Of a stretch of DNA of 64,000 nucleotides, positions 5,118-63,458 are shown piece after piece. The stretch is from a virus (taxonomy: Duplodnaviria; Heunggongvirae; Uroviricota; Caudoviricetes), in IMG/VR virus record IMGVR_UViG_2974624538_000001, positions 46,771-110,770 of that record. The stretch is one strand, 5' to 3'. Numbering within the stretch: the stretch's first letter is position 1; every line of letters starts with the position of its first letter. Made by a program: the position numbers and the translations under genes. The notes beneath the pieces were generated by a model that did not search any database, had not been told where the DNA came from, and saw only the letters and a list, made by a program, of their open reading frames with translations.

Positions 5118-5161
5118 GTTAGCGGCCCTTCGGGGCCGCAAGCTTTCTTGTAAGGAGGAAT

Positions 5162-5353
5162 ATGGCTGAGGAGCCTACGCAAATTGACCTTGCTCCATTT
5201 CTGGCGGCGGCGGTAGAGGAGGCAGGCGGAGAAATCCGAATTCCCTACGACGTATTTAGAAGTCAGGTTGGAGAGAAGGCTCTTGCAATTGATATTGAAG
5301 ATGACGGAGCAACGCTAGTTCTCCGAGTAGTAGATGGGATTCCAAATGAGTGA
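5162..5353 (+). CDS. hypothetical protein
   Basis: ORF with AAGGAGG RBS directly downstream of a hairpin+AAGCTT element. Confidence 0.4.
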   Translation: MAEEPTQIDLAPFLAAAVEEAGGEIRIPYDVFRSQVGEKALAIDIEDDGATLVLRVVDGIPNE

Positions 5354-5702
5354 TTACAGCATGTCAATGAATCAGTACCAGGACTTTACGCTTGATACAG
5401 CTATGTATCCTGGTGCTGGAGAGGGTGACCTTCAGGCCATCCTTTACACAACCCTTGGTCTCGCTGGAGAGGCTGGAGAAATTCCTAACAAGGTCAAGAA
5501 AATCCTCCGGGATGACAACGGCGTTCTGACTGAGGAGAAGCGTAAGGCAATTCTTGACGAGGTTGGTGACGTGCTTTGGTACGCTGCCCGACTTGCTCAC
5601 GAACTAGGTGCCCGTCTTGGTGACATTGCCGAGGCTAATGTCGATAAGTTGGACGACCGAGCAAATCGTGGAGTTATCCAGGGTAGTGGAGACTACCGCT
5701 AA
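5334..5702 (+). CDS. mazG: MazG-like nucleoside triphosphate pyrophosphohydrolase
   Basis: MazG motifs LGLAGEAGE, EVGDVLWY, LGDIAEANVDKLDDR. Confidence 0.7.
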   Translation: MGFQMSDYSMSMNQYQDFTLDTAMYPGAGEGDLQAILYTTLGLAGEAGEIPNKVKKILRDDNGVLTEEKRKAILDEVGDVLWYAARLAHELGARLGDIAEANVDKLDDRANRGVIQGSGDYR

Positions 5703-5718
5703 CTGGTATAATCATAGT

Positions 5719-5919
5719 ATGATGAACGGCTACTTCCTCAGGGGAATCACAGAAGATAACATTCTGGTTTTCAGAAGTGATGACCCTGAGGAACTTCTGC
5801 GAATTATCAAGCGACTATGCGCCAGCCGCGATAAACAAATTAGAGCGCTTGCCCAGCAACTAGAAATCGACTGGAATAGTCGAGAAAATACAAGAAAAGG
5901 TAATAATCGTAACAGATGA
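5719..5919 (+). CDS. hypothetical small protein
   Basis: in-frame ATG inside the longer 5608 ORF, avoiding overlap with MazG. Confidence 0.3.
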   Translation: MMNGYFLRGITEDNILVFRSDDPEELLRIIKRLCASRDKQIRALAQQLEIDWNSRENTRKGNNRNR

Positions 5920-6938
5920 GTTTTGAAGATTTCATGTCGAGATTGGACCCCAAGACTGCCAAGCGTCTTAAGGTTGCTCAGGAGATTGAGACTGTACAGC
6001 TCCCTCTTGCAAGCATTGGTCTAACGCACGCTTTGAATGGAGGAATCGGAACCGGTAGGGTTTCTACCTTCTACGGTAATCAGAGTAGTGGTAAGTCTCT
6101 CGTTCTCATGCAGACAATTGGTTTGCTTCAGAGGCAGGGATTCGTATGCGCATATGCAGACGCGGAAGGTACCTACACAAAGGAATTCGGTAAGCGTCTT
6201 GGTATCAACAATGATGAGTTGATTTATGTACGAAAGAAGTCAACAGGTGCAATGACTGACAGTATTATCCCGTATATTGAGGCGGGAGTTGATTTCATGG
6301 TGATTGACAGTATTAGTGATTTGCTTCCTGAGGTTTTCGTTGGAACTGATGGAAATGTAAAGGAATTCGCGGATATGAAGCAGATTGGTGCTCACGCAAA
6401 GTCTATTACAGCAATGCTTAATGCAATTCACTATGCTAATGAAAAAACGGCGGTTGCTCTTGTCAGTCAGACAACTACCAAGATTGAGTCAACCTATGTA
6501 CAGCAGGTTCCTCACGGAGGCCAGAAGGTTCTATTTGGTTCTTCTCAGATTGTAAAGTTGACGTCAAGCAATACCGACGCCAAGCAAATTAAGGGCATGG
6601 TTCAGCAAGGAGACCGATTGGTTGAAAAGCCTATCGGTCGTAGAGTTGACCTACTCGTTGAAAAGAACAAGTTGGGACCGCAGCATCGCCGCTGTGCATA
6701 CGATATGTATTACGATGGTCCCCAGGTAGGCGTAGACCTTGCGGGTGAAGTATTCGACCTTGCTGTAGATTTCGGTATTGTAAACAAGTCTGGCGCATGG
6801 TTTAATTACAATGACAAGACTGTTTACACTCAGGGACGACCAGCGTTCCTTGAGGAAATCAAGAAGGACGATGAACTATATTCACAGCTAAAGAAGGAGG
6901 TCAACATCGCTCTAAACGGTGGTGTTATTGACGAGTGA
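5916..6938 (+). CDS. recA: RecA-like recombinase
   Basis: Walker A GNQSSGKS, RecA-like core (CAYADAEGTYTKEFGKRLGIN..., DFMVIDSISDL). Confidence 0.85.
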   Translation: MSFEDFMSRLDPKTAKRLKVAQEIETVQLPLASIGLTHALNGGIGTGRVSTFYGNQSSGKSLVLMQTIGLLQRQGFVCAYADAEGTYTKEFGKRLGINNDELIYVRKKSTGAMTDSIIPYIEAGVDFMVIDSISDLLPEVFVGTDGNVKEFADMKQIGAHAKSITAMLNAIHYANEKTAVALVSQTTTKIESTYVQQVPHGGQKVLFGSSQIVKLTSSNTDAKQIKGMVQQGDRLVEKPIGRRVDLLVEKNKLGPQHRRCAYDMYYDGPQVGVDLAGEVFDLAVDFGIVNKSGAWFNYNDKTVYTQGRPAFLEEIKKDDELYSQLKKEVNIALNGGVIDE

Positions 6939-7126
6939 AGTTTAGTGAATTTGTTGCTCAGGAGCAGGAAGCGGAAGCCCCAAAGGGTATGGCTATTGAT
7001 GGCGGATTTAGTTGTCAGACCTGCTATGAGCAAGTTGATGAGGCGGAATATTTTCGTCTAGAAAAGATTTTGAAGTGGAAGTGTTCGGAGGGACACATTT
7101 CCTATGTTGAGGAATTTGTTCTCTGA
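6935..7126 (+). CDS. hypothetical Cys-containing small protein
   Basis: CxxC...C..H pattern. Confidence 0.3.
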   Translation: MKFSEFVAQEQEAEAPKGMAIDGGFSCQTCYEQVDEAEYFRLEKILKWKCSEGHISYVEEFVL

Positions 7127-7237
7127 GATTACAGAGAACGTAAGTCTATTTCTCGGCGGTATGCTTTTGGGGGTGGCTTTGGGAATCATTGCCACCCTCA
7201 TTGGCGTTACGGCTTATATGAATAAGGATAAAGAATA

Positions 7238-8330: not shown

Positions 8331-9113
8331 ATGAAGCGAGAGATTATCCAGGGTCTCAAGTTTCGTAAGCAGCCCGAGGGTTTCGATGCCAATGAGCTTT
8401 CCGAAATCCTTGAGGCTGCCTATATGAAGCAGCGACGCCCTAATAAGCATACACAGAAGAAGACATTTTCACCCAGTACCATTGGTTACGGTCATGGAAC
8501 CTGCCCAAGGTATTGGTTTCTTGCGTTTACTGGCGGGATGTTTGTAGAGACAGTAGATGCATTGGGAATTGCCAATATGTCTAATGGAACACAGGCTCAC
8601 GAACGTATTGAGAAGTTGTTTGATGAGTCCGGAATTCGCCTAGGAAATGAAATTGAGATTACTATGTCGGACCCGCCTGTGCGCGGATTTGCTGACGTAG
8701 AAATCAATTGGAAGGGCGAAGAGGTAATTGGTGAAATCAAGACAACGCGACAAGAGTCTTTCCTTGTCCGACAGGCAACAATGAAGCCAACACCAAATCA
8801 CCTTTTCCAGATTCTCATTTACATGAAGGCAAGAAATCGTAAGATGGGTTTCCTCTTGTATGAAAACAAGAATTCACAGGAATTCCTCATTCTTCCAATT
8901 GAGATGAATGAAACTAATGAGAAGATTGTCGATAATGCGCTTGATTGGATGAGAGAGACCTATAAGGCGTATACTGACGGCAATGTTCCGAACAGACCAT
9001 TGCAGAAGCGCAGCAAGATTTGTAAGGGCTGCCCATTTTACGAATGGTGCTGGAGTGACGATTCTCCTGAGGGAACGATTGATATTCCTGTAATGGAGGT
9101 TCCGAAGATTTGA
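8331..9113 (+). CDS. Cas4/RecB-family PD-(D/E)XK exonuclease with Fe-S cysteine cluster
   Basis: N-terminal CPRYW and C-terminal CKGCPFYEWC cysteines; DVEINWKGEEVIGEIKT (D..E.K) nuclease core. Confidence 0.65.
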   Translation: MKREIIQGLKFRKQPEGFDANELSEILEAAYMKQRRPNKHTQKKTFSPSTIGYGHGTCPRYWFLAFTGGMFVETVDALGIANMSNGTQAHERIEKLFDESGIRLGNEIEITMSDPPVRGFADVEINWKGEEVIGEIKTTRQESFLVRQATMKPTPNHLFQILIYMKARNRKMGFLLYENKNSQEFLILPIEMNETNEKIVDNALDWMRETYKAYTDGNVPNRPLQKRSKICKGCPFYEWCWSDDSPEGTIDIPVMEVPKI

Positions 9114-9391
9114 TTACGTGTGCATACGCTGAGTGTGGTCGTTTGTTTGAGGCAAAGACGCATAATCAGCGTTATTGTTCAGACGAATGTTGCCGGAAGG
9201 CGACCAATGCTCGATTGATGGAGCAATACTACGAAAAGAAGGCTCGTAGACAGGGCCACATTCGTGTATGCAAAAACTCTGACTGTAACACAAGACTGTC
9301 TAGATACAATGACAGCAATGAGTGTCAGAGTTGTGCTGCGGCCAAGGAAACTGAGCGCCGCAAGCAGTTGTTTAATCTTGTAGGAATTTAA
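9110..9391 (+). CDS. Cys-rich zinc-ribbon protein
   Basis: multiple CxxC pairs. Confidence 0.4.
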   Translation: MITCAYAECGRLFEAKTHNQRYCSDECCRKATNARLMEQYYEKKARRQGHIRVCKNSDCNTRLSRYNDSNECQSCAAAKETERRKQLFNLVGI

Positions 9392-9392
9392 T

Positions 9393-9980
9393 ATGTCACT
9401 GCTAGACCTGAAGAAGACCAAGGCGAGTAGGGTGATGGGGATTGACTGTTCCACCCACTCGCTCGCTTTTACCATCTTCTACAATAGAAGGCCCATCAAG
9501 TGGGGCAAGATTATTTTTGAAGGCGCTGACGTTTTTGACAGGCTGGAGGATGCAGCAAATAAGCTCCGGGCCGTCAAGGACGAGTTTGATGTTGACTACA
9601 TCGCCTTTGAGAGCGCCATCCTTGCCCGCACGAAGAATGCCGACGTGACAATCAAGTTGGCGATGGTGTATGGTGCTTGTATCGCAGAGTTGATGCGGAA
9701 GGGTGTTAAGGTAGTTACCGTTAAGCCATTGACGTGGCAGTCGTATATTGGTAATCCAAACTTTAAGCCTGCCGAGAAGGCTGCGTTGAAGGTTCAATTT
9801 CCAGATAAGTCAGCTTCCTGGTATTCAGCAAAAATTAGAGAACTTCGGAAGCAAAGAACTATGGATTACTTCAACAAGAAGTGGCCTCACATGGAGCTAA
9901 CAGATAATGATGTTGGCGACTCTGCGGGAATTGCTTACTATGCCTACTACAGTTTGACAACTCGTGGTAAGGTAGATTGA
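9393..9980 (+). CDS. RuvC-like Holliday junction resolvase
   Basis: RNase H-fold start VMGIDCSTHSLAF, C-terminal DSAGIA catalytic Asp motif. Confidence 0.65.
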   Translation: MSLLDLKKTKASRVMGIDCSTHSLAFTIFYNRRPIKWGKIIFEGADVFDRLEDAANKLRAVKDEFDVDYIAFESAILARTKNADVTIKLAMVYGACIAELMRKGVKVVTVKPLTWQSYIGNPNFKPAEKAALKVQFPDKSASWYSAKIRELRKQRTMDYFNKKWPHMELTDNDVGDSAGIAYYAYYSLTTRGKVD

Positions 9981-10014
9981 GCAATAGGGCTTCGGCCCAA
10001 GCTTAGGAGGGAAC

Positions 10015-13805: not shown

Positions 13806-14358
13806 TATCGATGGCGTAATGTACGATTTCGCTGAATCTCTTCGCCAATACATGAGGTACTTTGGTTATGACAAGAGGTACAAGATGTGTGAGGGTGAAG
13901 TTAGCGAATGGTACTTTTACCGTCATTGGGGCATGACAGACAGTGAGTTCGTAAACCACTGTCACAAGGGTGTGGACGCGGGCTTCGTTTTCGCTCATGG
14001 AGGCACCCGTGACAATTCTTCTGACGCTGTGAGATTTGTGAAGGACCTGGGTCACTCGGTTCATATCATTACGGACAGGAGTTTTGGCAGCACCCCAGAG
14101 CGTTCTCATTTCGCCACGAAGCAGTGGCTCTATCTGAACGATATTCCGTATGATACGATTGACTTCTCTGCTGACAAGACGTGTCGAGAGACTGACATGT
14201 TCATTGAGGACAAGTTGGAGAACTATGATGCCCTTGTTGCGGCGGGTGTTGACTGCTATCTTGTAAATCGACCGTGGAACATGGTTCCTGGAGACAACAG
14301 GAAGCGCATCAAGAGTATTCAGGAGTATGCTACAATTATTGGAAATCTTAGTGTTTGA
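13789..14358 (+). CDS. HAD-family 5'(3')-deoxyribonucleotidase
   Basis: FDIDGVMYDF HAD motif I; NT5C-like layout. Confidence 0.6.
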   Translation: MRVGFDIDGVMYDFAESLRQYMRYFGYDKRYKMCEGEVSEWYFYRHWGMTDSEFVNHCHKGVDAGFVFAHGGTRDNSSDAVRFVKDLGHSVHIITDRSFGSTPERSHFATKQWLYLNDIPYDTIDFSADKTCRETDMFIEDKLENYDALVAAGVDCYLVNRPWNMVPGDNRKRIKSIQEYATIIGNLSV

Positions 14359-14401
14359 CTTTTTGGTTGACTAAGATTACAATTGTTTTAGAAAGGATAA
14401 T

Positions 14402-15633: not shown

Positions 15634-15676
15634 TACCCTGTCCTCCGTAAGGAGGGCGGGGCTATTGGCGTTTCTC

Positions 15677-19713: not shown

Positions 19714-19845
19714 CTTGACTTCCAAGTCTTGGAGGTGCTACGATGGTATACAAGTTGAAGGCATTGTTCTTCAAGTTCCGCCCGGTGGTTGACAAGCTGC
19801 TGAGTAGATGGTACGTTAGAAGAACAAAGTAAGCAGCAAGCTTTC

Positions 19846-21988: not shown

Positions 21989-22059
21989 AATTTAATAGCC
22001 GGTAATACCGGCAAGCTTCCATAAACAATATGCCCAGAATGGGCCGAAAGGATTAGAAA

Positions 22060-23676: not shown

Positions 23677-23731
23677 AACACTGGGGGGTGAAGAGAAATC
23701 TTCACCCCCCAAGCTTGTTTTAAGGAGACGA

Positions 23732-28479: not shown

Positions 28480-28649
28480 ATACATGAACAGAGAGCAGTA
28501 CGAAAAGTTCAAGGAACGAGCGAAGAATGCTGGTCTCCACCTAGATAAGGATGGTTTCCAAAAGCACATGGAAGAGATTATGTCGAATCCGTCTGCTAGA
28601 GTGAACTATCTGAATCTAATGAAGTAAGTAAAACGCCCGAAAGGGCAAT

Positions 28650-30852: not shown

Positions 30853-31576
30853 CAGGCAGGGTTGGAACCTGCTAGAGTATGACTAAGAGGTCAGGCAGTC
30901 GGACAAGGCTTAGGCGGATGAGAGTAGTTCAAGCGGTGGTAACTTAAATGCCCACTTAATGATGCTCAACAAGCCGGTGGGATGCGAGTGGACTAGTCCT
31001 GACCTTTTAAGCTTGCAAGGTTCAGAGCAGATTAATCGCCAACGTAGGATAGCGTAGGTTGCCTTGCAGAGGCCCGAGGAGTAGGATGTGGGTAGGCAGT
31101 CGGAGCCGTTGCGTATGCGGCGGGGTTAGCGACGTGTAGGGTCTCAAGCTTCAATCTGTGGATAACGAAAGGGGTCCGGCGTTCTGTGAACTGGCAGTCG
31201 GGTAGCCTGGCATGATACAATAAGCCTCTAGCGGGGCTAGTCACCCAAGAGTAAAGTTCATTGAGGGTGAGCAGATTGAAAACATGGTTGCGAGAGGGCC
31301 AACGGGTATGCTAAGGTGGTGTACAACACCGAAGCGCAAAGGAGATAGGGGCACCAAGTAAATGGGTGCTGTGTATCGCAACCAAGCTTTGCAGCAAGCA
31401 GGCCAAACGCTATAGACAGGGATACAAGGTTCTGAAAAGGTAACGCCCATTTGGCAGGGTAGGAAGTTACCACCTGATGATATCCATGCTGCAACTATGG
31501 AGATGACCGGAAACTTCTCCATAAGCTTCCTTCGTAAAAGCTGTAATGTAGTAAACAAAACACGAAGGGTATTAAA

Positions 31577-32458: not shown

Positions 32459-32515
32459 CAACAGGGTGGCCTTCGGGCCACCAAGCTTACCTGACAAATT
32501 ACCTAAGGAGTTGAA

Positions 32516-36774: not shown

Positions 36775-36933
36775 TTAAATGTGGTTCCTGATTCCCCCAG
36801 CATATCTGTTACTTGGAATTGCTGGGGGTTCTTGGGTTAACTTGTCATTTTGGTCTGGTCTACTGACACTATGTGTGGTAGGTTGGGTTAAGTCAAGCTA
36901 ACCACTGCGGGCTAGTCCCGCAAGCTTGGAGGT

Positions 36934-38018: not shown

Positions 38019-38041
38019 GCAACTGCGGCTTCGGCCGCAAG

Positions 38042-38071
38042 CTTGACAACCACATTGGTTGTCTGTTAGTA
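38042..38071 (+). promoter_or_regulatory. sigma70-like promoter AAGCTTGACA-N18-TAGTAT with palindrome GACAACCA/TGGTTGTC over the -35
   Basis: about 17 nt upstream of tRNA-Leu(TAG). Confidence 0.5.
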
Positions 38072-38369: not shown

Positions 38370-38409
38370 AAAATGGCGGGGTTCGCCCCGCCAAGCTTAG
38401 GAGGTCATA

Positions 38410-39506: not shown

Positions 39507-39553
39507 CCCTGCGGCCCTTCGGGGCCGCTAGCTTTTTGAGAGAGGGTGGAAAA

Positions 39554-41059: not shown

Positions 41060-41122
41060 TTCGGCCGGGGTTCGTAAAGAACCCCAAGCTTCATTGGTTC
41101 GTAAACAAAGGAGAAATAACCA

Positions 41123-43048: not shown

Positions 43049-43109
43049 TTGATACGCTCCCGAAAGGGAGCAAGCTCCGGAAAACTAATCTAATATTAGG
43101 AGAAAATAA

Positions 43110-44117: not shown

Positions 44118-44159
44118 TCGGTTCGGCCCTTCGGGGCCAAGCTTATTAAGGAGGAACAA

Positions 44160-44316: not shown

Positions 44317-44363
44317 ATACACTAGCCTCTACGGAGGCAAGCTTCCTAACGAAAGGAGAAATA

Positions 44364-50901: not shown

Positions 50902-50949
50902 TGAAATGGGGGGTTCGCCCCCAAGCTTCCATTACAAAAGGAGAAGATA

Positions 50950-51405: not shown

Positions 51406-51447
51406 TAGAATGGGACTTCGGTCCCAAGCTTCCTGAAAGGAGATGTT

Positions 51448-51747: not shown

Positions 51748-51789
51748 GAATTCTGCCCGAAAGGGCAAGCTTTATCGTAAGGAGGAAGT

Positions 51790-52690: not shown

Positions 52691-52960
52691 ATGAGAGATA
52701 TTTGCGAAGAACTAGCGCACTGGTTTTTGGTGCATGATTACAAATGGAAGTTTGATTATGGCCACGGAAATCCAGATGCGGATGACATTGAGGCAGTAAT
52801 CAATAGGGCAATGCAATTGCTCAGTGTTGAAGAAACAGACACCAGACTTGAAGTTGGTAGGCTAATCTTCATGAAGAATGCTGAGCTTGGTCTGGTAGAC
52901 ATTTATGTTCATGCTGGTACTATTGAGGAGAATTCACTAAATGAGGACAGCGACGTTTGA
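52691..52960 (+). CDS. hypothetical protein
   Basis: ORF. Confidence 0.4.
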   Translation: MRDICEELAHWFLVHDYKWKFDYGHGNPDADDIEAVINRAMQLLSVEETDTRLEVGRLIFMKNAELGLVDIYVHAGTIEENSLNEDSDV

Positions 52961-53667: not shown

Positions 53668-53730
53668 TCTCAGCGGGTGTCGTAAGACGCCCGCAAGCTT
53701 CCTATAAACATACAGAAAAGGATTAGGAAA

Positions 53731-53967: not shown

Positions 53968-54015
53968 TGTTGCAGTACAATTGGGCTAGGGGAGAAATCC
54001 CCTAGCCTTTTTGTA

Positions 54016-55616: not shown

Positions 55617-55684
55617 TTTTCTGGCAAATTTTCGAAGGGGTTCGTAAAGGACCCTTTCAAGCTTCCACGATAAAGGAGAGGAAA

Positions 55685-56622: not shown

Positions 56623-56666
56623 AATTGGGCGGGTTGTTCGTTGACCCGCCAAGCTTTGGAGGAAAC

Positions 56667-57011: not shown

Positions 57012-57041
57012 TTGACAACCAACGAGAAAGGTTGGTAGTAT
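57012..57041 (+). promoter_or_regulatory. sigma70-like promoter TTGACA-N18-TAGTAT with palindrome CAACCAAC/GTTGGTAG
   Basis: seen in the intergenic region. Confidence 0.45.
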
Positions 57042-57215
57042 CTGACCATGAGATACGACGTTAGGAAAGACCCAAATGACGACACACAGTGGGTTATCTG
57101 GGATACTGTAGAAGAGCGCGTTTTTGCCCGGTATAGTAATCCAGATGAACCTCAGGCTATCGTTGACAAGTATCATGCTGCACAACTAGCAGCAGAAGCA
57201 AAGGGAGAGTAATAC

Positions 57216-57593
57216 ATGGTTGAGTACAATACTACATGTATTGTTGGTGGTACCAATATTCTTTGTGACCTTAAGTTTGATAAGAAGGTTCCAGCAGAAG
57301 TGAGCTTTACATTCCATGTGGAAGAGGATAAGTCCCCTGAATGGATTTTTTCTCGTGAACTTCTCAAGGATGCCATGAATGCTGATGGCGTTTCTGGTCA
57401 TGGAGATGTTGCATTTTATGACCACGGAGATGCAATCAGTATGCTCTTGCGCTCTCCTGAAGGAACTGGCCTTGCGATTTTTCAGCGGGGTGTTATTAAG
57501 GAATTCGTAAACGATATCTACAGTGAAGTTCCTGATGACTCGCTAAACCTCAGTGATGATGAGCTGAGCGAATGGCTTGACGGTTTGGTTTAA
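57216..57593 (+). CDS. hypothetical acidic protein
   Basis: ORF. Confidence 0.45.
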   Translation: MVEYNTTCIVGGTNILCDLKFDKKVPAEVSFTFHVEEDKSPEWIFSRELLKDAMNADGVSGHGDVAFYDHGDAISMLLRSPEGTGLAIFQRGVIKEFVNDIYSEVPDDSLNLSDDELSEWLDGLV

Positions 57594-57798
57594 TAAGCTC
57601 TTGGGGGTACAATGGACTCAGGAGGCAAGAATGGATTTGAATTTCAGCATGAACCCAGGTCTAGAAGTTTGGCTAGGCATTCTCCCACCACAGTGGGATG
57701 AAGATGATTTCGATGATTGGGAGGAAGAGGAATTCAAGGTAACCCAGAAGCGCCGAATCATTAATATTCGTAAGTCAGATTTCCGGCGAAATTTCTGA
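57577..57798 (+). CDS. hypothetical protein
   Basis: ORF; 3' end overlaps the 50-bp repeat. Confidence 0.4.
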   Translation: MTVWFNKLLGVQWTQEARMDLNFSMNPGLEVWLGILPPQWDEDDFDDWEEEEFKVTQKRRIINIRKSDFRRNF

Positions 57799-57883
57799 GG
57801 GGTTCGTAAAGAGCCCTTGCCCCTTCGGGGGCAAGCTTCCAGAGGGTTGACACAAGGTCCCCTCTCGTCTAAGGTGGTTGATA

Positions 57884-58086
57884 TGCAGGTCGGAGGAATT
57901 TATCGTTTCCAGGGTTCTACCACCACTGTTCGTGTGGTAGGCTTTGAGCGTGCAGGGTTGTTCCGCAAGTACGTGAAGTTTGAGACTCTGCACAATGGTC
58001 AGGTTTGTGGTCCCGTTCGTGAGGTTCTGAAGAGCTACGCAATGAGCAACTGGGAACCTGTTGACGTAGACCACTCGGTAGTGTAA
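57884..58086 (+). CDS. hypothetical protein
   Basis: ATG with TAAGGTGG RBS. Confidence 0.4.
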
Positions 58087-58122
58087 GGTAGTAACCACAA
58101 CGACAAGCCAGGGAGGCTAACA

Positions 58123-58473
58123 ATGAAGGTTTCGGCTCGTGTTTCTCGCAACGGCGGTATCTCCATCAAGAAGCTGGGGCGTCAGTCCCAGAGCCACAAG
58201 GCTGGCACGGTGGTTATGCGCAAGGTTCGTTTCAACGGTTCCGTTCTCGGTGACCTCGTTGAGGAGTCCAAGAACCGTTACGTGCCGCGTGTCAAGTCCT
58301 CCGTGGCCTTCTCGTCCGATGGTGACCTGATTGTCACTCGTGGAATTCAGGACTGGGGTCAGGCTCGCTACATCAAGTCTCTCGGCGGTTACTACAACAT
58401 CAAGAACGGTGAGCGCGTTGAGTCCGCTGAGTACGTGTACATCGTCGGTTCCACGATTTACTACACCGACTGA
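58123..58473 (+). CDS. hypothetical protein (GC3-rich codon usage)
   Basis: ORF; marked shift to G/C-ending codons. Confidence 0.45.
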   Translation: MKVSARVSRNGGISIKKLGRQSQSHKAGTVVMRKVRFNGSVLGDLVEESKNRYVPRVKSSVAFSSDGDLIVTRGIQDWGQARYIKSLGGYYNIKNGERVESAEYVYIVGSTIYYTD

Positions 58474-58531
58474 TTGACAACTCGCCCGAAGGTCCTGTAA
58501 GGTATAACTACCAACAACGAAGGAGAAGAAA

Positions 58532-59110
58532 ATGACCGAGCGTGAGTACCTGATTTCCCTTAAGCTTGCCAAGCCCGGCCGTGGACGCTACTCTCGTGAG
58601 GCCCGTGCTGCTCTTGACAAGGCAAAGGCGGATGGTATGGTGTTCGACAAGACTGCCGCTGAGATTGCCAAGGAAGAGCGTCAGAACAAGCCCAAGAGGG
58701 TTCGTTCTACAGCTCCCAAGGCTGTGAAGGAGGCTCGTCCCTCCCAGGATGCATACGACGCAAAGGCTGTTCGTTCCTGGGGTGAGCAGACTGGTGCTAT
58801 TGAGAAGGGGAAGCGTGGTAAGCTCCCTACGGCTCTCATCAACGCGTACCTTGCGGCCAATAAGACTGCAAAGAAGGTGACCGTTCGTAGGTCCGTGGGC
58901 AAGGCCGAGAAGGTCCGTGACGTGGCCGTAGGCTTCACCTACGCTCGTCGTGGCCCGAAGGACCCTTCCTTTATCTCTGAGCCTCTGGTGGCTGTTCAGA
59001 GCTGCGGAAGCTGCTCCAAGGGAGTGTCTTACTGCAAGTGCTCTTCCGGTCCGGTTGCTCCGAAGTACCTTGGTGGTGAAGTTCTGCTCTTGACTCGTCC
59101 CCAGGACTGA
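58532..59110 (+). CDS. Lsr2-like nucleoid-associated DNA-binding protein
   Basis: C-terminal VRSWGEQTGAIEKGKRGKLPTALINAYLAA resembles the Lsr2 DNA-binding domain (RGR motif); basic linker. Confidence 0.55.
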   Translation: MTEREYLISLKLAKPGRGRYSREARAALDKAKADGMVFDKTAAEIAKEERQNKPKRVRSTAPKAVKEARPSQDAYDAKAVRSWGEQTGAIEKGKRGKLPTALINAYLAANKTAKKVTVRRSVGKAEKVRDVAVGFTYARRGPKDPSFISEPLVAVQSCGSCSKGVSYCKCSSGPVAPKYLGGEVLLLTRPQD

Positions 59111-59168
59111 GGTAGAGTAGTCATCAGTGGGGGAGAGAAAGGCTCTCCCCCCTAACCAAGGAGTGTAT

Positions 59169-59489
59169 ATGTTTGATGGCCCCCGACGTGCCGTTGACCC
59201 TACTGGAGTGCGTCTGAGTGACGCCAATCATCGAGAGGACCGGCTTTATCGACTCGTTTCCAAGCACCTTCTGAATGGTCTGGAAAACTACACATTCAAT
59301 GTTCAGACCTTTGCGAATTTCATCGTGAAGACTTCTCCCGATGTTATCAAGTCCCGACTCATGCAGCTTGCACTTGCCATTGCAGACGCTTGCGCCGATG
59401 AGTACAAGGGTGGTAACATGACTGACGGACCTATCAACGGGATGCGGGTCCAGGAAGCAGTTCAGGTCTACAACATCCCGAGGGGTTGA
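59169..59489 (+). CDS. hypothetical protein
   Basis: ATG with CAAGGAG RBS. Confidence 0.4.
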   Translation: MFDGPRRAVDPTGVRLSDANHREDRLYRLVSKHLLNGLENYTFNVQTFANFIVKTSPDVIKSRLMQLALAIADACADEYKGGNMTDGPINGMRVQEAVQVYNIPRG

Positions 59490-59555
59490 CAGAAGCTTCC
59501 CCATCCTGCTAGTCTTTATACATCAAGCCAAACGAACTAAGGAGACTTAGAAAAT

Positions 59556-60578
59556 ATGCCTGCTGGTATTGAGGTTTACAAGGACATGGCCGCTTTCGCC
59601 TCGCTTCGTCAGCCTGCCTGGCATGACCTGGGGACGGTTTTCGACAAGCCGGTTTCCACGGCTGAGATGCTGGAGCTTGCGCACATGGCTGGTTGGAACC
59701 TGCGATTTGAGGATGCGTCCGACTGGATGCCCGGATTCAACTTCGTGGATGAGACTTTCCACGTGGTCCGTGACAACCCCTTCATTCCCGGTCAGAAGGA
59801 TGTTCTGGGAACTGTTGGCGGTCGGTATAACATCTTCTCGAATGAGCAGATTTTCGACTTTGCTGACACCCTTACGGATGGCCGTAGGCGTTGGGAAACG
59901 GCTGGTAGCATTAAGAACGGTCAGAAGGTTTTTGCTACTCTCGTGGCAACGGATGACCTTGTTCTTGACCCGAATGGTTCTGCCGACACTATCCGTCGAT
60001 ACATCATGCTGGTTTCCTCTCACGACGGTTCCACCACCATGATTGTCAAGATGGTGAATACGCGAGTGGTTTGCCAGAACACCCTTAACATTGCTCTTGG
60101 TGAAAAGGGTGCTGAGTTCAAGATTCGACACACTCAGGGAATGGAAACCAAGATTCAGGATGCTAAGAAGGCTCTTGGTCTGGCTACCATTTACGATGAG
60201 GTTTTCGAGAATGAAATGCAGGCTCTCTTTGAGAAGGAGATGACCTTGACCGAATTCGAGAAGATTGTCATGGACGTTTTCCCTGAGCCGGAAGAGGACG
60301 TTCGTGGAAGTCAGAAGAAGTGGGATGACAAGATGGATACCATTCTGAATATCTGGCAGAATTCCACTGGCTCTGTTGAGAATCTTCCGAACAACGCTTA
60401 CAAGGGTCTTCAGGTTCTCACTGAGCACAATCAGTGGTTCCGTGGAATTCGTAAGAGTTCCAAGACTGGTGAGCCGAACACCGAAAACTTCCTTGCGGCT
60501 GGTGCAGGTTTCGACCTGAAGACCACCGAGTTCCGTACCGAGGTTTTTGAGCGAATGAAGGAATTCGCAATGGCGTAA
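59556..60578 (+). CDS. hypothetical 340-aa protein, possibly structural (GC3-rich)
   Basis: strong RBS AAGGAGA; terminator-like hairpin downstream; no motifs recognised. Confidence 0.45.
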   Translation: MPAGIEVYKDMAAFASLRQPAWHDLGTVFDKPVSTAEMLELAHMAGWNLRFEDASDWMPGFNFVDETFHVVRDNPFIPGQKDVLGTVGGRYNIFSNEQIFDFADTLTDGRRRWETAGSIKNGQKVFATLVATDDLVLDPNGSADTIRRYIMLVSSHDGSTTMIVKMVNTRVVCQNTLNIALGEKGAEFKIRHTQGMETKIQDAKKALGLATIYDEVFENEMQALFEKEMTLTEFEKIVMDVFPEPEEDVRGSQKKWDDKMDTILNIWQNSTGSVENLPNNAYKGLQVLTEHNQWFRGIRKSSKTGEPNTENFLAAGAGFDLKTTEFRTEVFERMKEFAMA

Positions 60579-60630
60579 CGCTTGGCGGCCCCTTCGGGGG
60601 CCGCAAGCTTTTTCCTAGAAAGGGAATATA

Positions 60631-60786
60631 ATGGAAGAGTTCATTGGTTGTGTGATTCTGTCGCTGGTGGCTGCTGCACTGATAACTCCAATTGCCAATT
60701 ATGGATTTGACCAGCACCTGAACTTCTTTGTTGTTTGGATTGTTGCGTTCTGTCTGTGCTTTCTTGGTCTTTGGATTGCTGATTAA
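60631..60786 (+). CDS. small membrane protein (51 aa)
   Basis: after hairpin+AAGCTT; TATAATG start context. Confidence 0.35.
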   Translation: MEEFIGCVILSLVAAALITPIANYGFDQHLNFFVVWIVAFCLCFLGLWIAD

Positions 60787-60825
60787 AATATGGGGCGCAA
60801 TGCCCCAAGCTTGCAAGGAGGTAAA

Positions 60826-61113
60826 ATGGAAAACATGGCTTTGCCTAAAGCCCTGAGAACAAAGGTTGTTGATGGTCGAGTGTATTTCGACCTTGAGCAA
60901 CTGCTAGAAATTATGTATGATGTATGCAATAAGACATCAGTTCTGGCTACTGAGCTGAGAGACCCGGCTCTAGCCACCATGACGCTAGGCGTAGCGAACA
61001 TGTGCAAGGCTCTGGATGACGTTCTAACGGTCCAGAAGGCTGCTCATGGTCTGACTGGTCGCAGAGCTACTGACAGCGGCTCACAGAGCGATTCTGGCGG
61101 GGTTGCCGAGTAG
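60826..61113 (+). CDS. hypothetical protein
   Basis: CAAGGAGG RBS after hairpin+AAGCTT. Confidence 0.45.
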   Translation: MENMALPKALRTKVVDGRVYFDLEQLLEIMYDVCNKTSVLATELRDPALATMTLGVANMCKALDDVLTVQKAAHGLTGRRATDSGSQSDSGGVAE

Positions 61114-61411
61114 GACCGAATCTGATACACTAATTACATGTTCGTTAGGTGATAGGACACCTTTTCTCTTAGGATTCCGGTACCTCTATCAGTCAGGTCA
61201 GGCGAGAGGCTAAGTAACTAGTCGGCAGTTATGCCGGAATCCCTTCACAATTAGATAGTTGTTTACAAATGTCCAATTAACAGAAGGAGAATTAAGATGC
61301 CCGAAGTTTACGATTACGATGACGAGTCGCAGGATGTTTTCGTTGAGTCGGATTCTCCTGTTGACAGCATTTATATTCCGGATGGACTGACCGATTTTTA
61401 GGAGTTGACTT

Positions 61412-61681
61412 ATGCACACTGGACTTGAGAACACTAAGCAAGAGACACTTGAAATCTTGATTACTAACCTTAAGTCCGGTGTGCTTAAGGTTATTGATAT
61501 GGGTCCGGCTGCTTTGGTTTCCGACAATCCAAAGGAGTGCCCGCCCGCAGCAGCATTTGAAACTAATATGATGATTCTTCAAGCCTTTGAGGCCGAATGT
61601 CTCAGGCGTGGAATCGACTTTGATTCCATTGGTCCAAACATTCGAGAGATTGAGGACCGCTGGCTTGAAGCCCGACAATAA
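61412..61681 (+). CDS. hypothetical protein
   Basis: ORF. Confidence 0.4.
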   Translation: MHTGLENTKQETLEILITNLKSGVLKVIDMGPAALVSDNPKECPPAAAFETNMMILQAFEAECLRRGIDFDSIGPNIREIEDRWLEARQ

Positions 61682-61697
61682 GGAATAGGTAAAGACA

Positions 61698-61907
61698 TTG
61701 GCAATTGTTCGTATCAGCACTGTACTTAAGAATGCTCCATCCGTTGGCATTCAGGCTTGCGTCTATGGCGTTGAGTGTGAAACCATTGAGTCTAAGGACC
61801 CGGCTGGAATTGTTTTTGAACTAATGGGAAGCCGTGAGAAGATTGCCAACGTTGTTGGTCGCACTGGCTCTCGCATTCTAAGTATTGCTGAGCCTGTAGG
61901 TAAGTGA
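61698..61907 (+). CDS. hypothetical protein (possible KH-like GxxG, non-ATG start)
   Basis: ORF. Confidence 0.3.
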   Translation: MAIVRISTVLKNAPSVGIQACVYGVECETIESKDPAGIVFELMGSREKIANVVGRTGSRILSIAEPVGK

Positions 61908-61940
61908 GTCTGCCCCGCCATTTTGGCGGGGCTTTCTCGT
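61908..61940 (+). terminator. rho-independent terminator
   Basis: CTGCCCCGCCattttGGCGGGGCTTTCTCGTCT. Confidence 0.55.
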
Positions 61941-62006
61941 CTCATTGGTAGGTTGACAGACCTACCAAGCTTGATGTACAGTCTTACCAGAACGAAGGGA
62001 GACAGG

Positions 62007-62681
62007 GTGTCCAAGGCAACGTATCCGATTAAGCGTCTGATGACCCGAGACAGGGGTGTTTGCTGGCTGTGCCGTAAGCTTGTTTCAAGGGAACACGCAA
62101 CGCGTGACCACGTTATCCCTTACTCTCATGGTGGACCAAACCATGAGGCGAACCTTAAGCTTGCTCATCGTGCGTGCAACGAAAAGCGAGAAAACAAGAA
62201 TTTGATTTCTAAGGCAGAAAGTCTTAAGATTCTCCTGAAGTGCCAGAGCCATCTGTGCTTTAGGTGTGTCTCTCCGTTGCACAGTGATGACGCAATGATT
62301 TCTATGGATTGCCCGCGCGGGTCTCTTCGTGAAATCAGGGTGGCTATCTGTAAGTCAGGATGCGAAAAGAAGCTGCTCATTCCTTTCCAAAAGAGGAAGA
62401 GCGAGAAGCGCATCAATAAGAGGATTGAATCTAGGAAGAATAGGATTCCAATGGAAATGATTGTTGCTGATTCCCTTTACGCTGACCAGCTTCAGGATGG
62501 GGATTATGTAAGGTTCTACGCTGAAGGCGCTCTCCGATTCGGAATTGTCCGGGATGTTACGGACAACGACGAATTCTTCACCATCACCCTTGAGGATGAT
62601 GTTGAGGGGGATATTCAGGAATACAGTGCTGGTCCTGAAACGGTATATTCCCTTCTTGTTCATGAGGCTGTTTCGGTCTAA
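62007..62681 (+). CDS. HNH endonuclease
   Basis: CWLC...HATRDHVIPYSHGGPNHEANLKLAHRACN HNH motif; probable GTG start after GAAGGGAGA. Confidence 0.6.
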   Translation: MSKATYPIKRLMTRDRGVCWLCRKLVSREHATRDHVIPYSHGGPNHEANLKLAHRACNEKRENKNLISKAESLKILLKCQSHLCFRCVSPLHSDDAMISMDCPRGSLREIRVAICKSGCEKKLLIPFQKRKSEKRINKRIESRKNRIPMEMIVADSLYADQLQDGDYVRFYAEGALRFGIVRDVTDNDEFFTITLEDDVEGDIQEYSAGPETVYSLLVHEAVSV

Positions 62682-62768
62682 TGAAATGGGTGGGTTGACA
62701 AAACCCACCCAAGCTTGTTAGTCTTCTTTTAGGTAACCCGATTGAAGGGAGAAAACTAGGAGAAGACT

Positions 62769-63155
62769 ATGGAAAAGAAGTGGTATATTGGCATCATCGC
62801 GTTTGCGATTGCCATTGCAACTCTGGTTATTGTGGTGGTTTCCAACATGGACACTACACAGAGTAAGTTCGAGAAGTATGAAAGTTACGCTAAGCAAGTA
62901 AACATCGTTGATTGGTCAATTAGCGAGGATACTGCTAAGAGTTTTGCTGAGGCCAATTGTGACAAGCTCGCAACAGGAGAAATGCCAGCAATCAAGTTTC
63001 AAAGCACTGACCACGTAAAGTCAAGTGCCGCTGTATTGGCAGCATATTGTCCCGCCTCATTTGATAATTTTTTGGCGGGTATTATCATGAAGTACCCAGA
63101 ATACAAGAGTACAGCAATGTACCTAAATGAAAGGCTCAAGGTTGGTTCTGATTGA
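62769..63155 (+). CDS. membrane-anchored protein
   Basis: N-terminal TM helix. Confidence 0.45.
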   Translation: MEKKWYIGIIAFAIAIATLVIVVVSNMDTTQSKFEKYESYAKQVNIVDWSISEDTAKSFAEANCDKLATGEMPAIKFQSTDHVKSSAAVLAAYCPASFDNFLAGIIMKYPEYKSTAMYLNERLKVGSD

Positions 63156-63392
63156 GTGGCTGGTAAAGTGCCTGGTCATGGCCGTTGCGTGTTGTACTGG
63201 TGCCATGCTAGGGTTGTATCTAGGTTTCCAAATGGCAGTCAATGGATGGTTTGGGTAATGGCTAAGAAGCAACATCAGGATTCGTTAGAGGAATTTGTTT
63301 ATGGCTGCGTCGGGTTCATCATGATTGTTGGGATGGTCTGTGGCGCTGTGATTGTAGGTCTGACGTGGCTAGCCTTTGAGTTGTTCGGCTAG
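63156..63392 (+). CDS. small membrane protein
   Basis: TM helices. Confidence 0.4.
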   Translation: MAGKVPGHGRCVLYWCHARVVSRFPNGSQWMVWVMAKKQHQDSLEEFVYGCVGFIMIVGMVCGAVIVGLTWLAFELFG

Positions 63393-63458
63393 CCAGAGGG
63401 GGGTTGACACCAACCCCCCAAGCTTGGTAAGGTTTTCCTACAACGAAGGGAGACGGAC

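What the first reader, a model, noticed from the sequence alone, without database searches (positions are those of the whole stretch)
5123..63425. Recurrent intergenic module: GC-rich hairpin immediately followed by CAAGCTT, then RBS and start codon (about 25-30 copies)
AAGCTT occurs roughly 40 times in 64 kb against an expectation of about 16. Examples are 5140, 9999, 22013, 23711, 32483, 36922, 38048, 38393, 41086, 44139, 44338, 50923, 51426, 51767, 53695, 55659, 56651, 57833, 60605, 60807, 61967, 62711 and 63420. Nearly every copy sits 0-2 nt after a perfect GC hairpin (for example GCGGCCCttcgGGGCCGC-AAGCTT) and 10-30 nt before an SD and ATG. Two copies end 1-2 nt before the 5' end of Y RNA-like elements (19838, 20362). 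This fits a conserved terminator-plus-start signal. It could be a phage-specific promoter element with the transcription start just downstream, or an endonucleolytic processing site that creates short leaders.
Basis: seen in the sequence. Interest (0 to 1): 0.65.

Follow-up and report, generated by a model that had tools for sequence, protein, structure and literature searches.

The report
Phage hairpin-AAGCTT gene-boundary signal
In Streptomyces phage Gilson, about two dozen gaps between genes hold a strong RNA hairpin followed at once by AAGCTT; this lineage-specific mark most likely shows where long phage messenger RNAs are cut and capped with a protective hairpin, but no experiment has tested this.

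Summary
The window is Streptomyces phage Gilson (Loccivirinae), record positions 46771-110770. AAGCTT occurs 44 times. Of these, 34 lie in the 8,960 nt of intergenic DNA, against 2.2 expected from shuffled intergenic sequence. 24 exact copies and 2 one-base variants directly follow a GC hairpin that starts just after a stop codon and lies 9-52 nt before the next start codon.

The motif is tied to the hairpin, not to the SD, the ATG or the promoter hexamers. At the same sites in related phages the stems change by compensating or wholesale replacement, while AAGCT stays invariant. Loops are mostly UUCG or GNRA, and G.U pairs outnumber A.C 8 to 2. Selection therefore acts on the transcript. Four Loccivirinae genera carry the module; the sister subfamily Boydwoodruffvirinae lacks it.

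Where the next gene is a tRNA, the same hairpin sits 2-4 nt before the tRNA 5' end, almost always without AAGCT. My best reading (about 0.45) is an RNA punctuation mark: a hairpin that protects the 3' end, plus a single-stranded cut site. AAG|CUU fits the mycobacterial RNase E preference RR|CNU. A U-less terminator is the main rival. The promoter-element reading is not supported. No published description was found. I rate it a new variant of a known kind, of moderate interest.

The parts
604..627 (+). module: hairpin GGGAGGAacatTCCTCCC + AAGCTT (after primase, before ssb)
   Evidence: the same site carries the module in all Loccivirinae-like IMG/VR loci (positions about 1750-1810 in the loci)
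5122..5145 (+). module: GCGGCCCttcgGGGCCGC + AAGCTT, then SD and ATG at 5162 (after DnaE)
   Evidence: 11 orthologous sites keep hairpin + AAGCTT with altered stems
9987..10004 (+). module: GGGCttcgGCCC + AAGCTT
   Evidence: Comrade ortholog is TGGGGctcgtCCCCA + AGCTT
21998..22018 (+). module before the Ro-like gene
   Evidence: compensated stem in Comrade
23682..23716 (+). module with 13-bp stem, GAAA loop
   Evidence: the stem is wholly replaced in Comrade and Jada while AAGCTT is kept
32465..32488 (+). module
36906..36927 (+). module; AAGCTT is followed directly by GGAGG
38024..38044 (+). module whose AAGCTT overlaps a -35 (AAGCTTGACA-N18-TAGTAT); the only module before a tRNA (tRNA-Leu at 38089)
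38374..38398 (+). module
   Evidence: the Comrade ortholog stem has a G.U pair
39511..39534 (+). variant module: hairpin + TAGCTT
   Evidence: the Comrade ortholog has AAGCTT
41067..41091 (+). module (GUAAA loop) before the rIIA-like gene
   Evidence: three different stems in Gilson, Comrade and Annadreamy
43056..43077 (+). variant module: hairpin + AAGCTC
44125..44144 (+). module; left edge of the gp171 cassette
   Evidence: in Jada and Comrade the cassette from 44145 to 44344 is missing, with the junction exactly at AAGCTT
44325..44344 (+). module; right edge of the gp171 cassette
50907..50928 (+). module
51411..51431 (+). module TGGGACttcgGTCCCA + AGCTT
51754..51772 (+). module
53673..53700 (+). 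module; 9-bp stem with one U.G pair
55634..55664 (+). module; the hairpin belongs to the TTCGTAAAG family, with one G.U pair
56628..56656 (+). module
57816..57838 (+). module followed by promoter TTGACA(57847)-N17-TAAGGT
60585..60610 (+). module
60791..60812 (+). module
61946..61972 (+). module with the -35 TTGACA in the hairpin loop; -10 TACAGT lies 4 nt after AAGCTT
62687..62716 (+). module with TTGACA in the loop; -10 is TAGTCT
   Evidence: conserved in Annadreamy
63398..63425 (+). module with TTGACA in the loop; -10 is TAAGGT
   Evidence: the Annadreamy ortholog has AAGCTA
28635..28649 (+). example of the AAGCT-less sister arrangement: hairpin GCCCgaaaGGGC ending 3 nt before tRNA-Tyr. Similar hairpins precede the tRNAs at 19990, 27776, 34194, 35080, 38986, 46046, 47405, 49181 and 50352.
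31009..31151 (+). non-coding 137-nt segment flanked by AAGCTT on both sides (31009, 31146); absent from Comrade, which has a single AAGCTT at the junction
19838..19843 (+). AAGCTT without a hairpin, at the 5' edge of a structured non-coding element (also at 20362-20367)

Best explanation
The module is a mark at the RNA level that closes one cistron and separates it from the next.

Proposed steps:
1. Host RNA polymerase starts at the many sigma70/HrdB-type promoters and makes long rightward transcripts. This is inferred from sequence.
2. Just after a stop codon, the transcript folds into a very stable GC hairpin with a UUCG or GNRA-type loop. That this structure is selected is shown by comparative evidence.
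3. The single-stranded AAGCU(U) that follows is recognised and cut by an endoribonuclease. The most economical candidate is the host RNase E (RNase ES), cutting AAG|CUU. This step is inferred.
4. The cut leaves the upstream mRNA ending in a hairpin plus 1-3 nt, which blocks 3'-to-5' exonucleases. The downstream mRNA is left with a short 5'-monophosphate leader carrying its SD.
5. Where the next gene is a tRNA, RNase P makes the equivalent cut 2-4 nt after the same kind of hairpin, so no AAGCU is needed.

In the early region the same hairpin is also merged with host-type promoters. As a side effect, the repeated module marks the junctions of gene-cassette gains and losses.
For: The structure is selected, and on the transcript strand:
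- At the site after DnaE, 11 Loccivirinae-type sequences all have a hairpin plus AAGCTT, but with at least 6 different stems. These include G:C to C:G swaps and a U.G pair.
- 12 further Gilson/Comrade/Annadreamy ortholog sets behave the same way.
- The commonest loops are UUCG (26) and GAAA (25), then GCAA, GUAAA and GAGA.
- Among stems with a single non-Watson-Crick opposition, G.U occurs 8 times and A.C 2 times.

The motif is bound to the hairpin. The gap is 0 nt, while the distance to the start codon is 9-52 nt. Among hairpins that follow a gene in four phages, 86 are followed by exact AAGCTT. The 17 real variants differ almost only at position 6 (15 of 17), so AGCT is invariant.

The module is not a strong terminator:
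- 19 of 24 modules have no promoter before the next gene, and some of those genes are essential-looking.
- The phage also has canonical hairpin-plus-T-run terminators, at 1435-1464, 33325-33344, 53984-54007 and 61912-61932.

Parallel with tRNA junctions: 15 CDS-to-tRNA junctions have a GC hairpin, typically ending 2-4 nt before the tRNA, and only 1 has AAGCT. Among CDS-to-CDS junctions with a hairpin, 19 of 34 have AAGCT by a conservative count (Fisher p = 0.0013).

AAG|CUU matches the mycobacterial RNase E preference RR|CNU. In mycobacteria, cleavage sites are enriched in intergenic regions, 5' UTRs and single-stranded RNA (PMC10641625).

AAGCTT without a hairpin also sits at the edges of structured non-coding elements, at 19838, 20362 and 31009-31523.
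Against: - There are no 5'-end or 3'-end data for this phage or any relative.
- The generic RNase E consensus occurs about 1,050 times on the coding strand of the window and is not depleted (1051 observed against 1003 expected). That preference alone cannot explain why AAGCT is invariant across four genera.
- The conservation pattern fits RR|CNU imperfectly. The invariant U5 is 'N' in the consensus, and the variable position 6 is its 'U'.
- The RNase E preference was measured in mycobacteria, not in Streptomyces.
- AGCT is under-represented outside the modules (observed/expected 0.64 in Gilson, 0.61 in Comrade). However, it is only weakly depleted in BillNye (0.87), which has the module, and similarly in phages that lack the module (0.82-0.86). 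Avoidance therefore does not track the module.
- No phage endoribonuclease candidate was found among 20 hypothetical proteins scanned.
Confidence: 0.45

Rival explanations
1. It is a U-less ('I-shaped') intrinsic terminator or attenuator of the kind common in Streptomyces. The hairpin stops or pauses a fraction of polymerases, and AAGCUU is the lineage's preferred release or pause context.
For: The module sits immediately after stop codons. In S. clavuligerus, Term-seq found 353 highly structured transcript 3' ends without a U tract, against 182 with one (PMC8269248). In the early region the hairpins sit right at the next promoter, as insulators would.
Against: 19 of 24 modules are followed by genes with no promoter of their own, so most polymerases must read through. 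The phage uses canonical hairpin-plus-T-run terminators elsewhere. Mycobacterial RNA polymerase needs a U tract in vitro (title of PMC3993855). The U-less 3' ends in the host showed no conserved sequence, and they may arise by trimming back to the hairpin. Hairpins before tRNAs lack AAGCU, which a termination role does not predict.
Confidence: 0.2
2. AAGCU(U) next to a hairpin is the binding site of a protein specific to Loccivirinae. This could be an RNA-binding translational or antitermination regulator, a dedicated endoribonuclease, or a DNA-binding protein that reads the palindrome.
For: AAGCT is strictly invariant across four genera, and the module is absent from the sister subfamily although both infect the same hosts. 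The motif is far more specific than any known host nuclease preference. The motif is a palindrome.
Against: No candidate protein was found. Variation is asymmetric, with position 6 varying 15 times and position 1 twice. The hairpin is almost always on the 5' side on the coding strand. Both points argue against a symmetric reader of double-stranded DNA. The variable distance to the SD argues against a translational operator.
Confidence: 0.15
3. Its main role is as a recombination junction for shuffling gene cassettes, as with PeSLs in T4-type phages.
For: The gp171 cassette (44145-44344) is lost in Jada and Comrade exactly from AAGCTT to AAGCTT. A 137-nt segment is flanked by AAGCTT in Gilson and absent from Comrade. 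An HNH gene insertion in Jada ends exactly at AAGCTT. The modules lie in the region of small, variable genes.
Against: Only 3 of 20 Gilson/Jada indels touch AAGCT. The others use tRNA-associated homing-endonuclease insertions, a 10-nt microhomology, or repeated leader sequences. Six conserved bases plus variable stems give little homology to recombine on. Selection for base pairing, G.U pairs and RNA tetraloops points to a function in the transcript. Shuffling at modules is more likely a by-product.
Confidence: 0.07
4. AAGCTT is a promoter or initiator element, with transcription starting just downstream.
For: The motif lies upstream of the SD and start codon. Two copies abut the 5' edge of structured non-coding elements. 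AAGCTT has the A2 and T6 of a -10 hexamer, and at 17810 TAAGCT does serve as a predicted -10.
Against: AAGCTT has no fixed position relative to the -35 or -10 hexamers. In several modules the SD follows immediately (AAGCTTGGAGG, AAGCTTAGGAGG), so a start 6-8 nt downstream would remove the SD. The upstream sequence is a variable GC stem with no conserved bases, and there is no information downstream. No phage RNA polymerase or sigma factor is annotated. Genuine host-type promoters are abundant and look different.
Confidence: 0.05

Closest known systems
PeSL / PmSL cassettes of T4-type phages (Arbiol 2010; Comeau 2014, PMC4122927)
   Same: Each is a composite intergenic cassette: a stem-loop, then a sigma70-like early promoter, then the SD and start codon. 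PeSLs are concentrated among small variable genes and sit at indel junctions. The right-hand copies here (57833, 61967, 62711, 63420, and those beyond the window) have that layout, and some indels end at modules.
   Different: Most copies here have no promoter. The conserved part is a 5-6 nt word fixed to the 3' foot of the hairpin. The stems are not conserved in sequence. In the promoter-bearing copies the -35 lies inside the hairpin loop rather than downstream of the hairpin.
SAS / ESAS repeats of Cluster K mycobacteriophages (Pope 2011, PMC3203893)
   Same: This is an actinobacteriophage feature of unknown function. It is restricted to the non-structural half of the genome, has one orientation, and consists of an inverted repeat followed by a short conserved word upstream of start codons.
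   Different: The SAS is a 13-bp word that includes the RBS and lies 3-7 bp from the start codon. The ESAS arms are conserved in sequence. Here the word is 5-6 nt, excludes the RBS, lies at a variable distance from the start, and is glued to a hairpin of free sequence.
RNase E cleavage sites of mycobacteria, RR|CNU (Zhou 2023, PMC10641625)
   Same: AAG|CUU fits the consensus. Both occur in a single-stranded context, and mycobacterial cleavage sites are enriched between co-transcribed genes.
   Different: The known preference is loose. Here five bases are invariant. Cleavage has not been shown, and the enzyme's preference in Streptomyces was not found in the literature searched.
U-less hairpin 3' ends ('I-shaped terminators', HS-U-lack ends) of Streptomyces (PMC8269248)
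   Same: Both are stable GC stem-loops without a U tract at transcript ends.
   Different: No conserved sequence follows the host hairpins. Here AAGCU always follows, and read-through appears to be required.
Intercistronic processing signals of other phages: T7 RNase III sites, T4 intercistronic C(UUCG)G hairpins; also mitochondrial 'tRNA punctuation' (all from my own knowledge, not checked here)
   Same: Long phage transcripts are cut between genes so that each product ends in a protective stem-loop. UUCG hairpins between phage cistrons are known. tRNAs can act as alternative cut marks.
   Different: T7 sites are long double-stranded RNase III substrates. No short single-stranded word fixed to the hairpin foot is known in those systems.

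Membership tests
Canonical intrinsic (L-shaped) terminator | GC-rich hairpin just downstream of a gene | tested here: met
   Hairpins of -7 to -26 kcal/mol start 0-10 nt after stop codons.
Canonical intrinsic (L-shaped) terminator | U tract of 7-9 nt immediately 3' of the stem | tested here: not met
   The stem is followed by AAGCUU and then unconstrained sequence. True T-run terminators occur elsewhere in the window.
U-less (I-shaped) actinobacterial terminator | Stable stem-loop without a U tract at a mapped transcript 3' end | not testable with these tools
   The structure and the missing U tract are present. No 3'-end data exist. The lack of a downstream promoter in 19 of 24 modules argues that termination is at most partial.
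RNase E site (mycobacterial RR|CNU) | Sequence RR|CNU in single-stranded RNA | tested here: met
   AAG|CUU fits the consensus. The motif lies outside the predicted stem except for its first A.
RNase E site (mycobacterial RR|CNU) | The consensus is enough to account for the conserved word | tested here: not met
   RRCNU occurs 1051 times on the + strand against 1003 expected. Positions 1 and 5 are invariant although the consensus does not require them, and position 6 (the consensus U) is the variable one.
RNase E site (mycobacterial RR|CNU) | Demonstrated cleavage giving a 5'-monophosphate C | not testable with these tools
   This needs RACE or dRNA-seq, or an in vitro assay.
PeSL (T4-type promoter-early stem-loop) | Stem-loop coupled to a sigma70-like promoter, SD and start codon | tested here: inconclusive
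   Met by 5 of the 24 exact modules in the window (38039, 57833, 61967, 62711, 63420). Not met by the other 19.
PeSL (T4-type promoter-early stem-loop) | Sits at indel junctions in variable regions | tested here: inconclusive
   3 of 20 Gilson/Jada indels, plus one Gilson/Comrade indel, end at AAGCT.
SAS/ESAS (Cluster K mycobacteriophages) | 13-bp word containing the RBS, 3-7 bp from the start codon | tested here: not met
   The word is 5-6 nt, the distance to the start is 9-52 nt, and the RBS is separate.
SAS/ESAS (Cluster K mycobacteriophages) | Inverted-repeat arms conserved in sequence | tested here: not met
   Stems differ between copies and between orthologs.
Sigma70-type promoter element | Fixed position relative to the -35 and -10 hexamers | tested here: not met
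   Four different positions were seen.
Hairpin promoter of the phage N4 virion RNA polymerase type (from my own knowledge) | Conserved stem and loop bases, and a phage-encoded RNA polymerase | tested here: not met
   Stems and loops vary. No RNA polymerase gene is annotated in the record. I did not run a deep homology search for one.
Only sub-threshold matches were found (30.8 and 27.4 bits against a gathering score of 69).

The most novel reading that the evidence does not exclude
Loccivirinae phages run a dedicated mRNA punctuation system. A sequence-specific endoribonuclease activity reads single-stranded AAGCU stacked on any stable hairpin and cuts every early and middle transcript into hairpin-capped units. 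The activity would be a phage-encoded enzyme, or a phage factor that retargets a host nuclease. tRNAs cut by RNase P serve as interchangeable punctuation marks. A more speculative version holds that the self-complementary AAGCUU pairs two modules into a stacked helix of about 20 bp that RNase III can cut.
Probability: 0.18. Interest if true: 0.75.

Novelty: new variant of a known kind. Interest (0 to 1): 0.5.

Why it matters
If the module is a cut-and-protect signal, it would be a compact and portable RNA-processing and insulation part for Streptomyces, where such parts are scarce. It is about 20-30 nt long: any GC hairpin plus AAGCU.

It would also give a defined natural substrate for asking what actinobacterial RNase E, or an unknown nuclease, actually recognises. 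It would explain how 128-kb lytic phages with a base composition unlike their host's express about 200 small genes from long transcripts.

The sharp divide between two sister subfamilies that infect the same hosts makes the signal's origin and its reader tractable by comparative genomics. Even if the module turns out to be a U-less attenuator, the invariant word after the hairpin would be the first sequence determinant reported for that poorly understood class.

Tried and rejected
- Chance or composition: rejected.
- Promoter element: rejected because the motif's position relative to promoter hexamers varies and nothing downstream is conserved.
- Translation signal: rejected because the distance to the SD and start codon varies from 0 to about 40 nt.
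- Symmetric DNA palindrome site: unlikely, because variation is asymmetric and the hairpin lies on one side.
- Avoidance of the generic RNase E consensus in ORFs: tested, no depletion found.
- AGCT avoidance as a signature of a cleavage core: the depletion is strong in Gilson and Comrade, but it does not track the presence of the module across phages, so I do not rely on it.
- Strand test using the leftward genes (record 0.9-6.4 kb): uninformative. Those genes have almost no spacers and no modules.
- Search for a phage nuclease: 20 hypothetical proteins and 2 methyltransferase-annotated proteins were scanned against Pfam. No RNase-like domain was found.
- Consensus folding of the MAFFT alignment of the site after DnaE failed, because MAFFT misaligned the stems. 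I read the compensating changes directly from the sequences instead.
- Literature: no description of the motif was found in papers on these phages.
- Rfam: no family matches the module. The YrlA matches are sub-threshold and lie elsewhere.

Full report
IDENTITY OF THE WINDOW

The window is 100% identical to Streptomyces phage Gilson (MK061412.1 / NC_048742.1, 128,338 bp). The record's taxonomy is Stanwilliamsviridae; Loccivirinae; Gilsonvirus. The window covers record positions 46771-110770 on the + strand. Every annotated gene in the window is on the + strand. The window spans the replication genes, a region rich in tRNA genes (32 tRNA/tmRNA genes) and a long run of small genes of unknown function.

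AAGCTT occurs 44 times, against 20.4 +/- 5.0 in dinucleotide shuffles. Using the record's gene table, 34 copies lie in the 8,960 nt of intergenic sequence. Shuffling each intergenic region gives 2.2 +/- 1.4 copies (maximum 9 of 1000). So the enrichment does not vanish against a shuffled-intergenic background.

24 exact copies follow a GC hairpin with no gap. In about half of them the first A pairs with a T placed 5' of the stem. Two more sites have the same anatomy with one changed base: TAGCTT at 39529 and AAGCTC at 43072.

The 10 copies inside genes are ordinary coding sequence, as are all copies in relatives that lack the module.

The full anatomy is: stop codon, 0-10 nt, hairpin (-7 to -26 kcal/mol), AAGCTT, then 9-52 nt containing the SD, then the start codon.

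In the whole genome there are about 41-43 modules. All lie on the + strand between record positions 47.3 and 119.9 kb. One AAGCTG variant lies in the structural-gene block, and none lie among the leftward genes.

WHAT THE MOTIF IS ATTACHED TO

I started from hairpins that follow a gene, without using the motif to select them. In four phages, 86 such hairpins are followed by exact AAGCTT. The 17 genuine variants differ at position 6 (15 cases: G, C or A) or at position 1 (2 cases). AGCT never varies.

No position from 7 to 32 nt downstream carries more than 0.15 bit of information. The word is therefore fixed to the foot of the hairpin and floats relative to the SD and start codon. It belongs to the end of the upstream gene.

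THE HAIRPIN IS SELECTED AS STRUCTURE, ON THE TRANSCRIPT

The site after the DnaE polymerase gene was chosen by synteny, not by structure. There, Gilson and 10 other Loccivirinae-type sequences (isolates and metagenomic contigs, 78-97% protein identity) all have a hairpin plus AAGCTT, but the stems differ:
- GCGGCCC/GGGCCGC
- GCCGCCC/GGGCGGC
- GCTGCCCC/GGGGCAGC
- GGGCC/GGCCC
- GGCCCC/GGGGCC
- GCCUGCCCC/GGGGCGGC, which contains a U.G pair

Twelve other Gilson sites compared with Comrade and Annadreamy show the same pattern, including complete replacement of a 13-bp stem by an unrelated 9-bp stem.

The dominant loops are UUCG (26) and GAAA (25), followed by other GNRA-like loops. Among stems with one non-Watson-Crick opposition, G.U occurs 8 times and A.C twice. 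This is the asymmetry expected if the + strand RNA is what folds.

DISTRIBUTION

The module is present in four Loccivirinae genera:
- Gilsonvirus: Gilson, Comrade and Jada
- Annadreamyvirus: 49 AAGCTT in 36 kb
- Wilnyevirus: BillNye
- related metagenomic contigs

The module is absent from the sister subfamily Boydwoodruffvirinae. In Jay2Jay, CAAGCTT occurs 10 times against 9.2 expected, and no hairpin is followed by the motif. In StarPlatinum, all 20 AAGCTT copies lie away from hairpins, nearly all within coding sequence. Seven loci with 57-61% identity and three with 44-49% identity lack the module after DnaE.

Both subfamilies infect the same Streptomyces hosts.

WHY IT IS NOT A PROMOTER ELEMENT

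Host-type promoters (TTGACN-N16-19-TAnnnT) are very abundant in the genome: 90 against 18 in shuffles, nearly all on the + strand. Where a promoter coincides with a module, AAGCTT takes different positions relative to it:
- It overlaps the -35 (AAGCTTGACA, 38039).
- It follows the -35 directly (59493).
- It lies in the spacer, with the -35 inside the hairpin loop (61967, 62711, 63420).
- It overlaps the -10 (TAAGCT, 17810).

Nineteen of the 24 exact modules have no promoter. In several of them the SD follows the motif immediately.

WHY IT IS PROBABLY NOT A STRONG TERMINATOR

The genes downstream of those 19 modules have no other visible source of transcription, so polymerase must read through. 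The phage also has textbook hairpin-plus-T-run terminators where units end, at 1435-1464, 33325-33344, 53984-54007 and 61912-61932.

Hairpin-ended transcripts without a U tract are common in Streptomyces, with 353 such ends against 182 with a U tract in S. clavuligerus. They carry no conserved word and may arise by trimming (PMC8269248). A partial, attenuator-like effect cannot be excluded.

THE tRNA PARALLEL

Where a protein gene is followed by a tRNA gene, a GC hairpin of the same kind typically ends 2-4 nt before the mature tRNA 5' end. Examples precede the tRNAs at 19990, 27776, 28650, 34194, 35080, 38986, 46046, 47405, 49181 and 50352.

Of 15 such hairpins, only one is followed by AAGCT, and that one carries a promoter. 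By a conservative count, 19 of 34 hairpins at CDS-to-CDS junctions are followed by AAGCT (Fisher p = 0.0013).

RNase P cuts at the tRNA 5' end. That would leave the upstream RNA ending in a hairpin plus 2-4 nt. A cut within AAG|CUU would leave the same kind of end.

This is my main argument that AAGCU is a cut mark. It is an inference.

WHICH NUCLEASE

In mycobacteria, RNase E cuts 5' of cytidine with the preference RR|CNU, in single-stranded RNA, and more often in intergenic regions and 5' UTRs (PMC10641625). AAG|CUU fits this preference. A random conserved hexamer would fit in about 3-6% of cases by my own arithmetic.

The fit is incomplete in three ways:
- The loose consensus is present about 1,050 times on the coding strand and is not avoided.
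- The invariant positions 1 and 5 are not required by the consensus.
- The variable position 6 is the consensus U.

Either AAGCU is an unusually good site made effective by the adjacent hairpin, or a more specific reader exists.

I found no RNase-like domain in the 20 hypothetical proteins I scanned. I also found no published cleavage preference for Streptomyces RNase E.

SIDE EFFECT: CASSETTE JUNCTIONS

The 200-nt gp171 cassette (44145-44344) is missing from Jada and Comrade, with the junction exactly at AAGCTT. Annadreamy has two cassettes at this site.

A 137-nt non-coding segment (31015-31151) is flanked by AAGCTT in Gilson and absent from Comrade. An HNH gene inserted in Jada ends at AAGCTT.

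Only 3 of 20 Gilson/Jada indels touch the motif. The others involve homing endonucleases next to tRNAs, a 10-nt microhomology, or repeated leader sequences. I therefore treat shuffling as a consequence of having a repeated boundary element. This resembles what is proposed for PeSLs in T4-type phages (PMC4122927).

COMPARISON WITH KNOWN SYSTEMS

The closest described elements are:
- PeSLs: a stem-loop plus an early promoter, SD and start codon.
- The SAS/ESAS repeats of Cluster K mycobacteriophages: an inverted repeat plus a 13-bp word at start codons, function unknown (PMC3203893).

The module differs from both. Its conserved word is short, excludes the RBS, is fixed to the hairpin rather than to the start codon, and its stems are free in sequence.

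Functionally, it most resembles the intercistronic processing sites of T7 and the UUCG hairpins between T4 cistrons. Those two comparisons rest on my own knowledge.

I found no description of this module in the literature I could search.

VERDICT

This is a real, strongly non-random, lineage-specific gene-boundary module that acts in the transcript.
- Best mechanism: a protective hairpin plus a single-stranded cut site, confidence about 0.45. The identity of the nuclease is open.
- Main rival: a U-less attenuator, about 0.2.
- Promoter-element reading: about 0.05.

I rate it a new variant of a known kind, with interest 0.5.

Noticed in passing
whole window, and whole Gilson genome: GATC is completely absent: 0 copies against about 275 expected in the window and about 389 in the genome. 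It is also absent from the fetched parts of Comrade, Annadreamy, BillNye and Jay2Jay, but present at the expected rate in StarPlatinum (128 observed, 136 expected). This suggests strong selection against a GATC-specific restriction or methyl-dependent system.
   Followed up: partly
window about 50306, 52625, 55611, 57773; TTCGTAAA at 15 + strand sites: TTCGTAAA occurs 18 times against 1.6 expected. Four copies belong to a longer repeat of about 45 nt, aTTTTCYGGCRAATTTy..GGGG-TTCGTAAAG-RRCCC. Three of these are followed by AAGCTK and one by a tRNA. The function is unknown.
   Followed up: partly
window 17492-30849, 57012-63404 and elsewhere: Near-consensus host-type promoters (TTGACA-N17/18-TAAGGT or TAGTAT) are very abundant: 90 in the genome against 18 in shuffles, nearly all on the + strand. 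Many lie directly upstream of tRNA genes.
   Followed up: partly
window 19844-19989, 20080-20193, 20368-20468, 21307-21364, 34435-34451: Several structured non-coding elements and tRNA-like T-arm hairpins (GGTTCGAATCC) lie near the Ro-like gene (22060-23676). The Rfam YrlA matches are sub-threshold, at 30.8 and 27.4 bits against a gathering score of 69.
   Followed up: partly
window 30853-31576: This is a 720-nt stretch with no annotated gene, after the tmRNA and gp137. It holds four AAGCTT copies (31009, 31146, 31384, 31523). Its segments fold somewhat better than shuffles (z about -2.9 for two of three). The middle part is conserved in Comrade.
   Followed up: partly
window 31127-33335, compared with L034 (Jada) 18291-18300: Jada lacks 2.2 kb that includes the band-7-like gene. 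The junction is a 10-nt repeat, cggcggggtt, which is the 3' arm of a terminator hairpin.
   Followed up: no
L034 (Jada) 9024-9578, 13950-14378, 15674-16123, 19783-20136, 25597-26091, 33739-34065, 37136-37630, 39547-40143: Compared with Gilson, Jada carries many extra HNH, LAGLIDADG and PDDEXK endonuclease genes, several inserted between or next to tRNA genes. Homing endonucleases are the main source of indels between these 95-99% identical phages.
   Followed up: no
window 26922-27722, 40577-41059, 54259-54753, 57216-57593, 59556-60578, 52941-53363: Pfam domains were found in proteins annotated as hypothetical: vWA-TerF-like, Macro, NADAR, SsgA (Streptomyces sporulation/division protein), DUF932 and KTSC.
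   Followed up: no
Gilson record 47-120 kb, and Comrade 50-100 kb: Outside the modules, AGCT is the most under-represented palindromic tetramer after GATC (observed/expected 0.64 and 0.61, z about -9). Depletion is weaker in the structural block (0.82) and in the other phages examined (0.76-0.87).
   Followed up: partly
L011 (BillNye) about 1136-1162: This is one reversed arrangement: on the coding strand, AAGCTT lies 5' of a hairpin (CCGGGaaacgCCCGG). It is the only such case seen.
   Followed up: no
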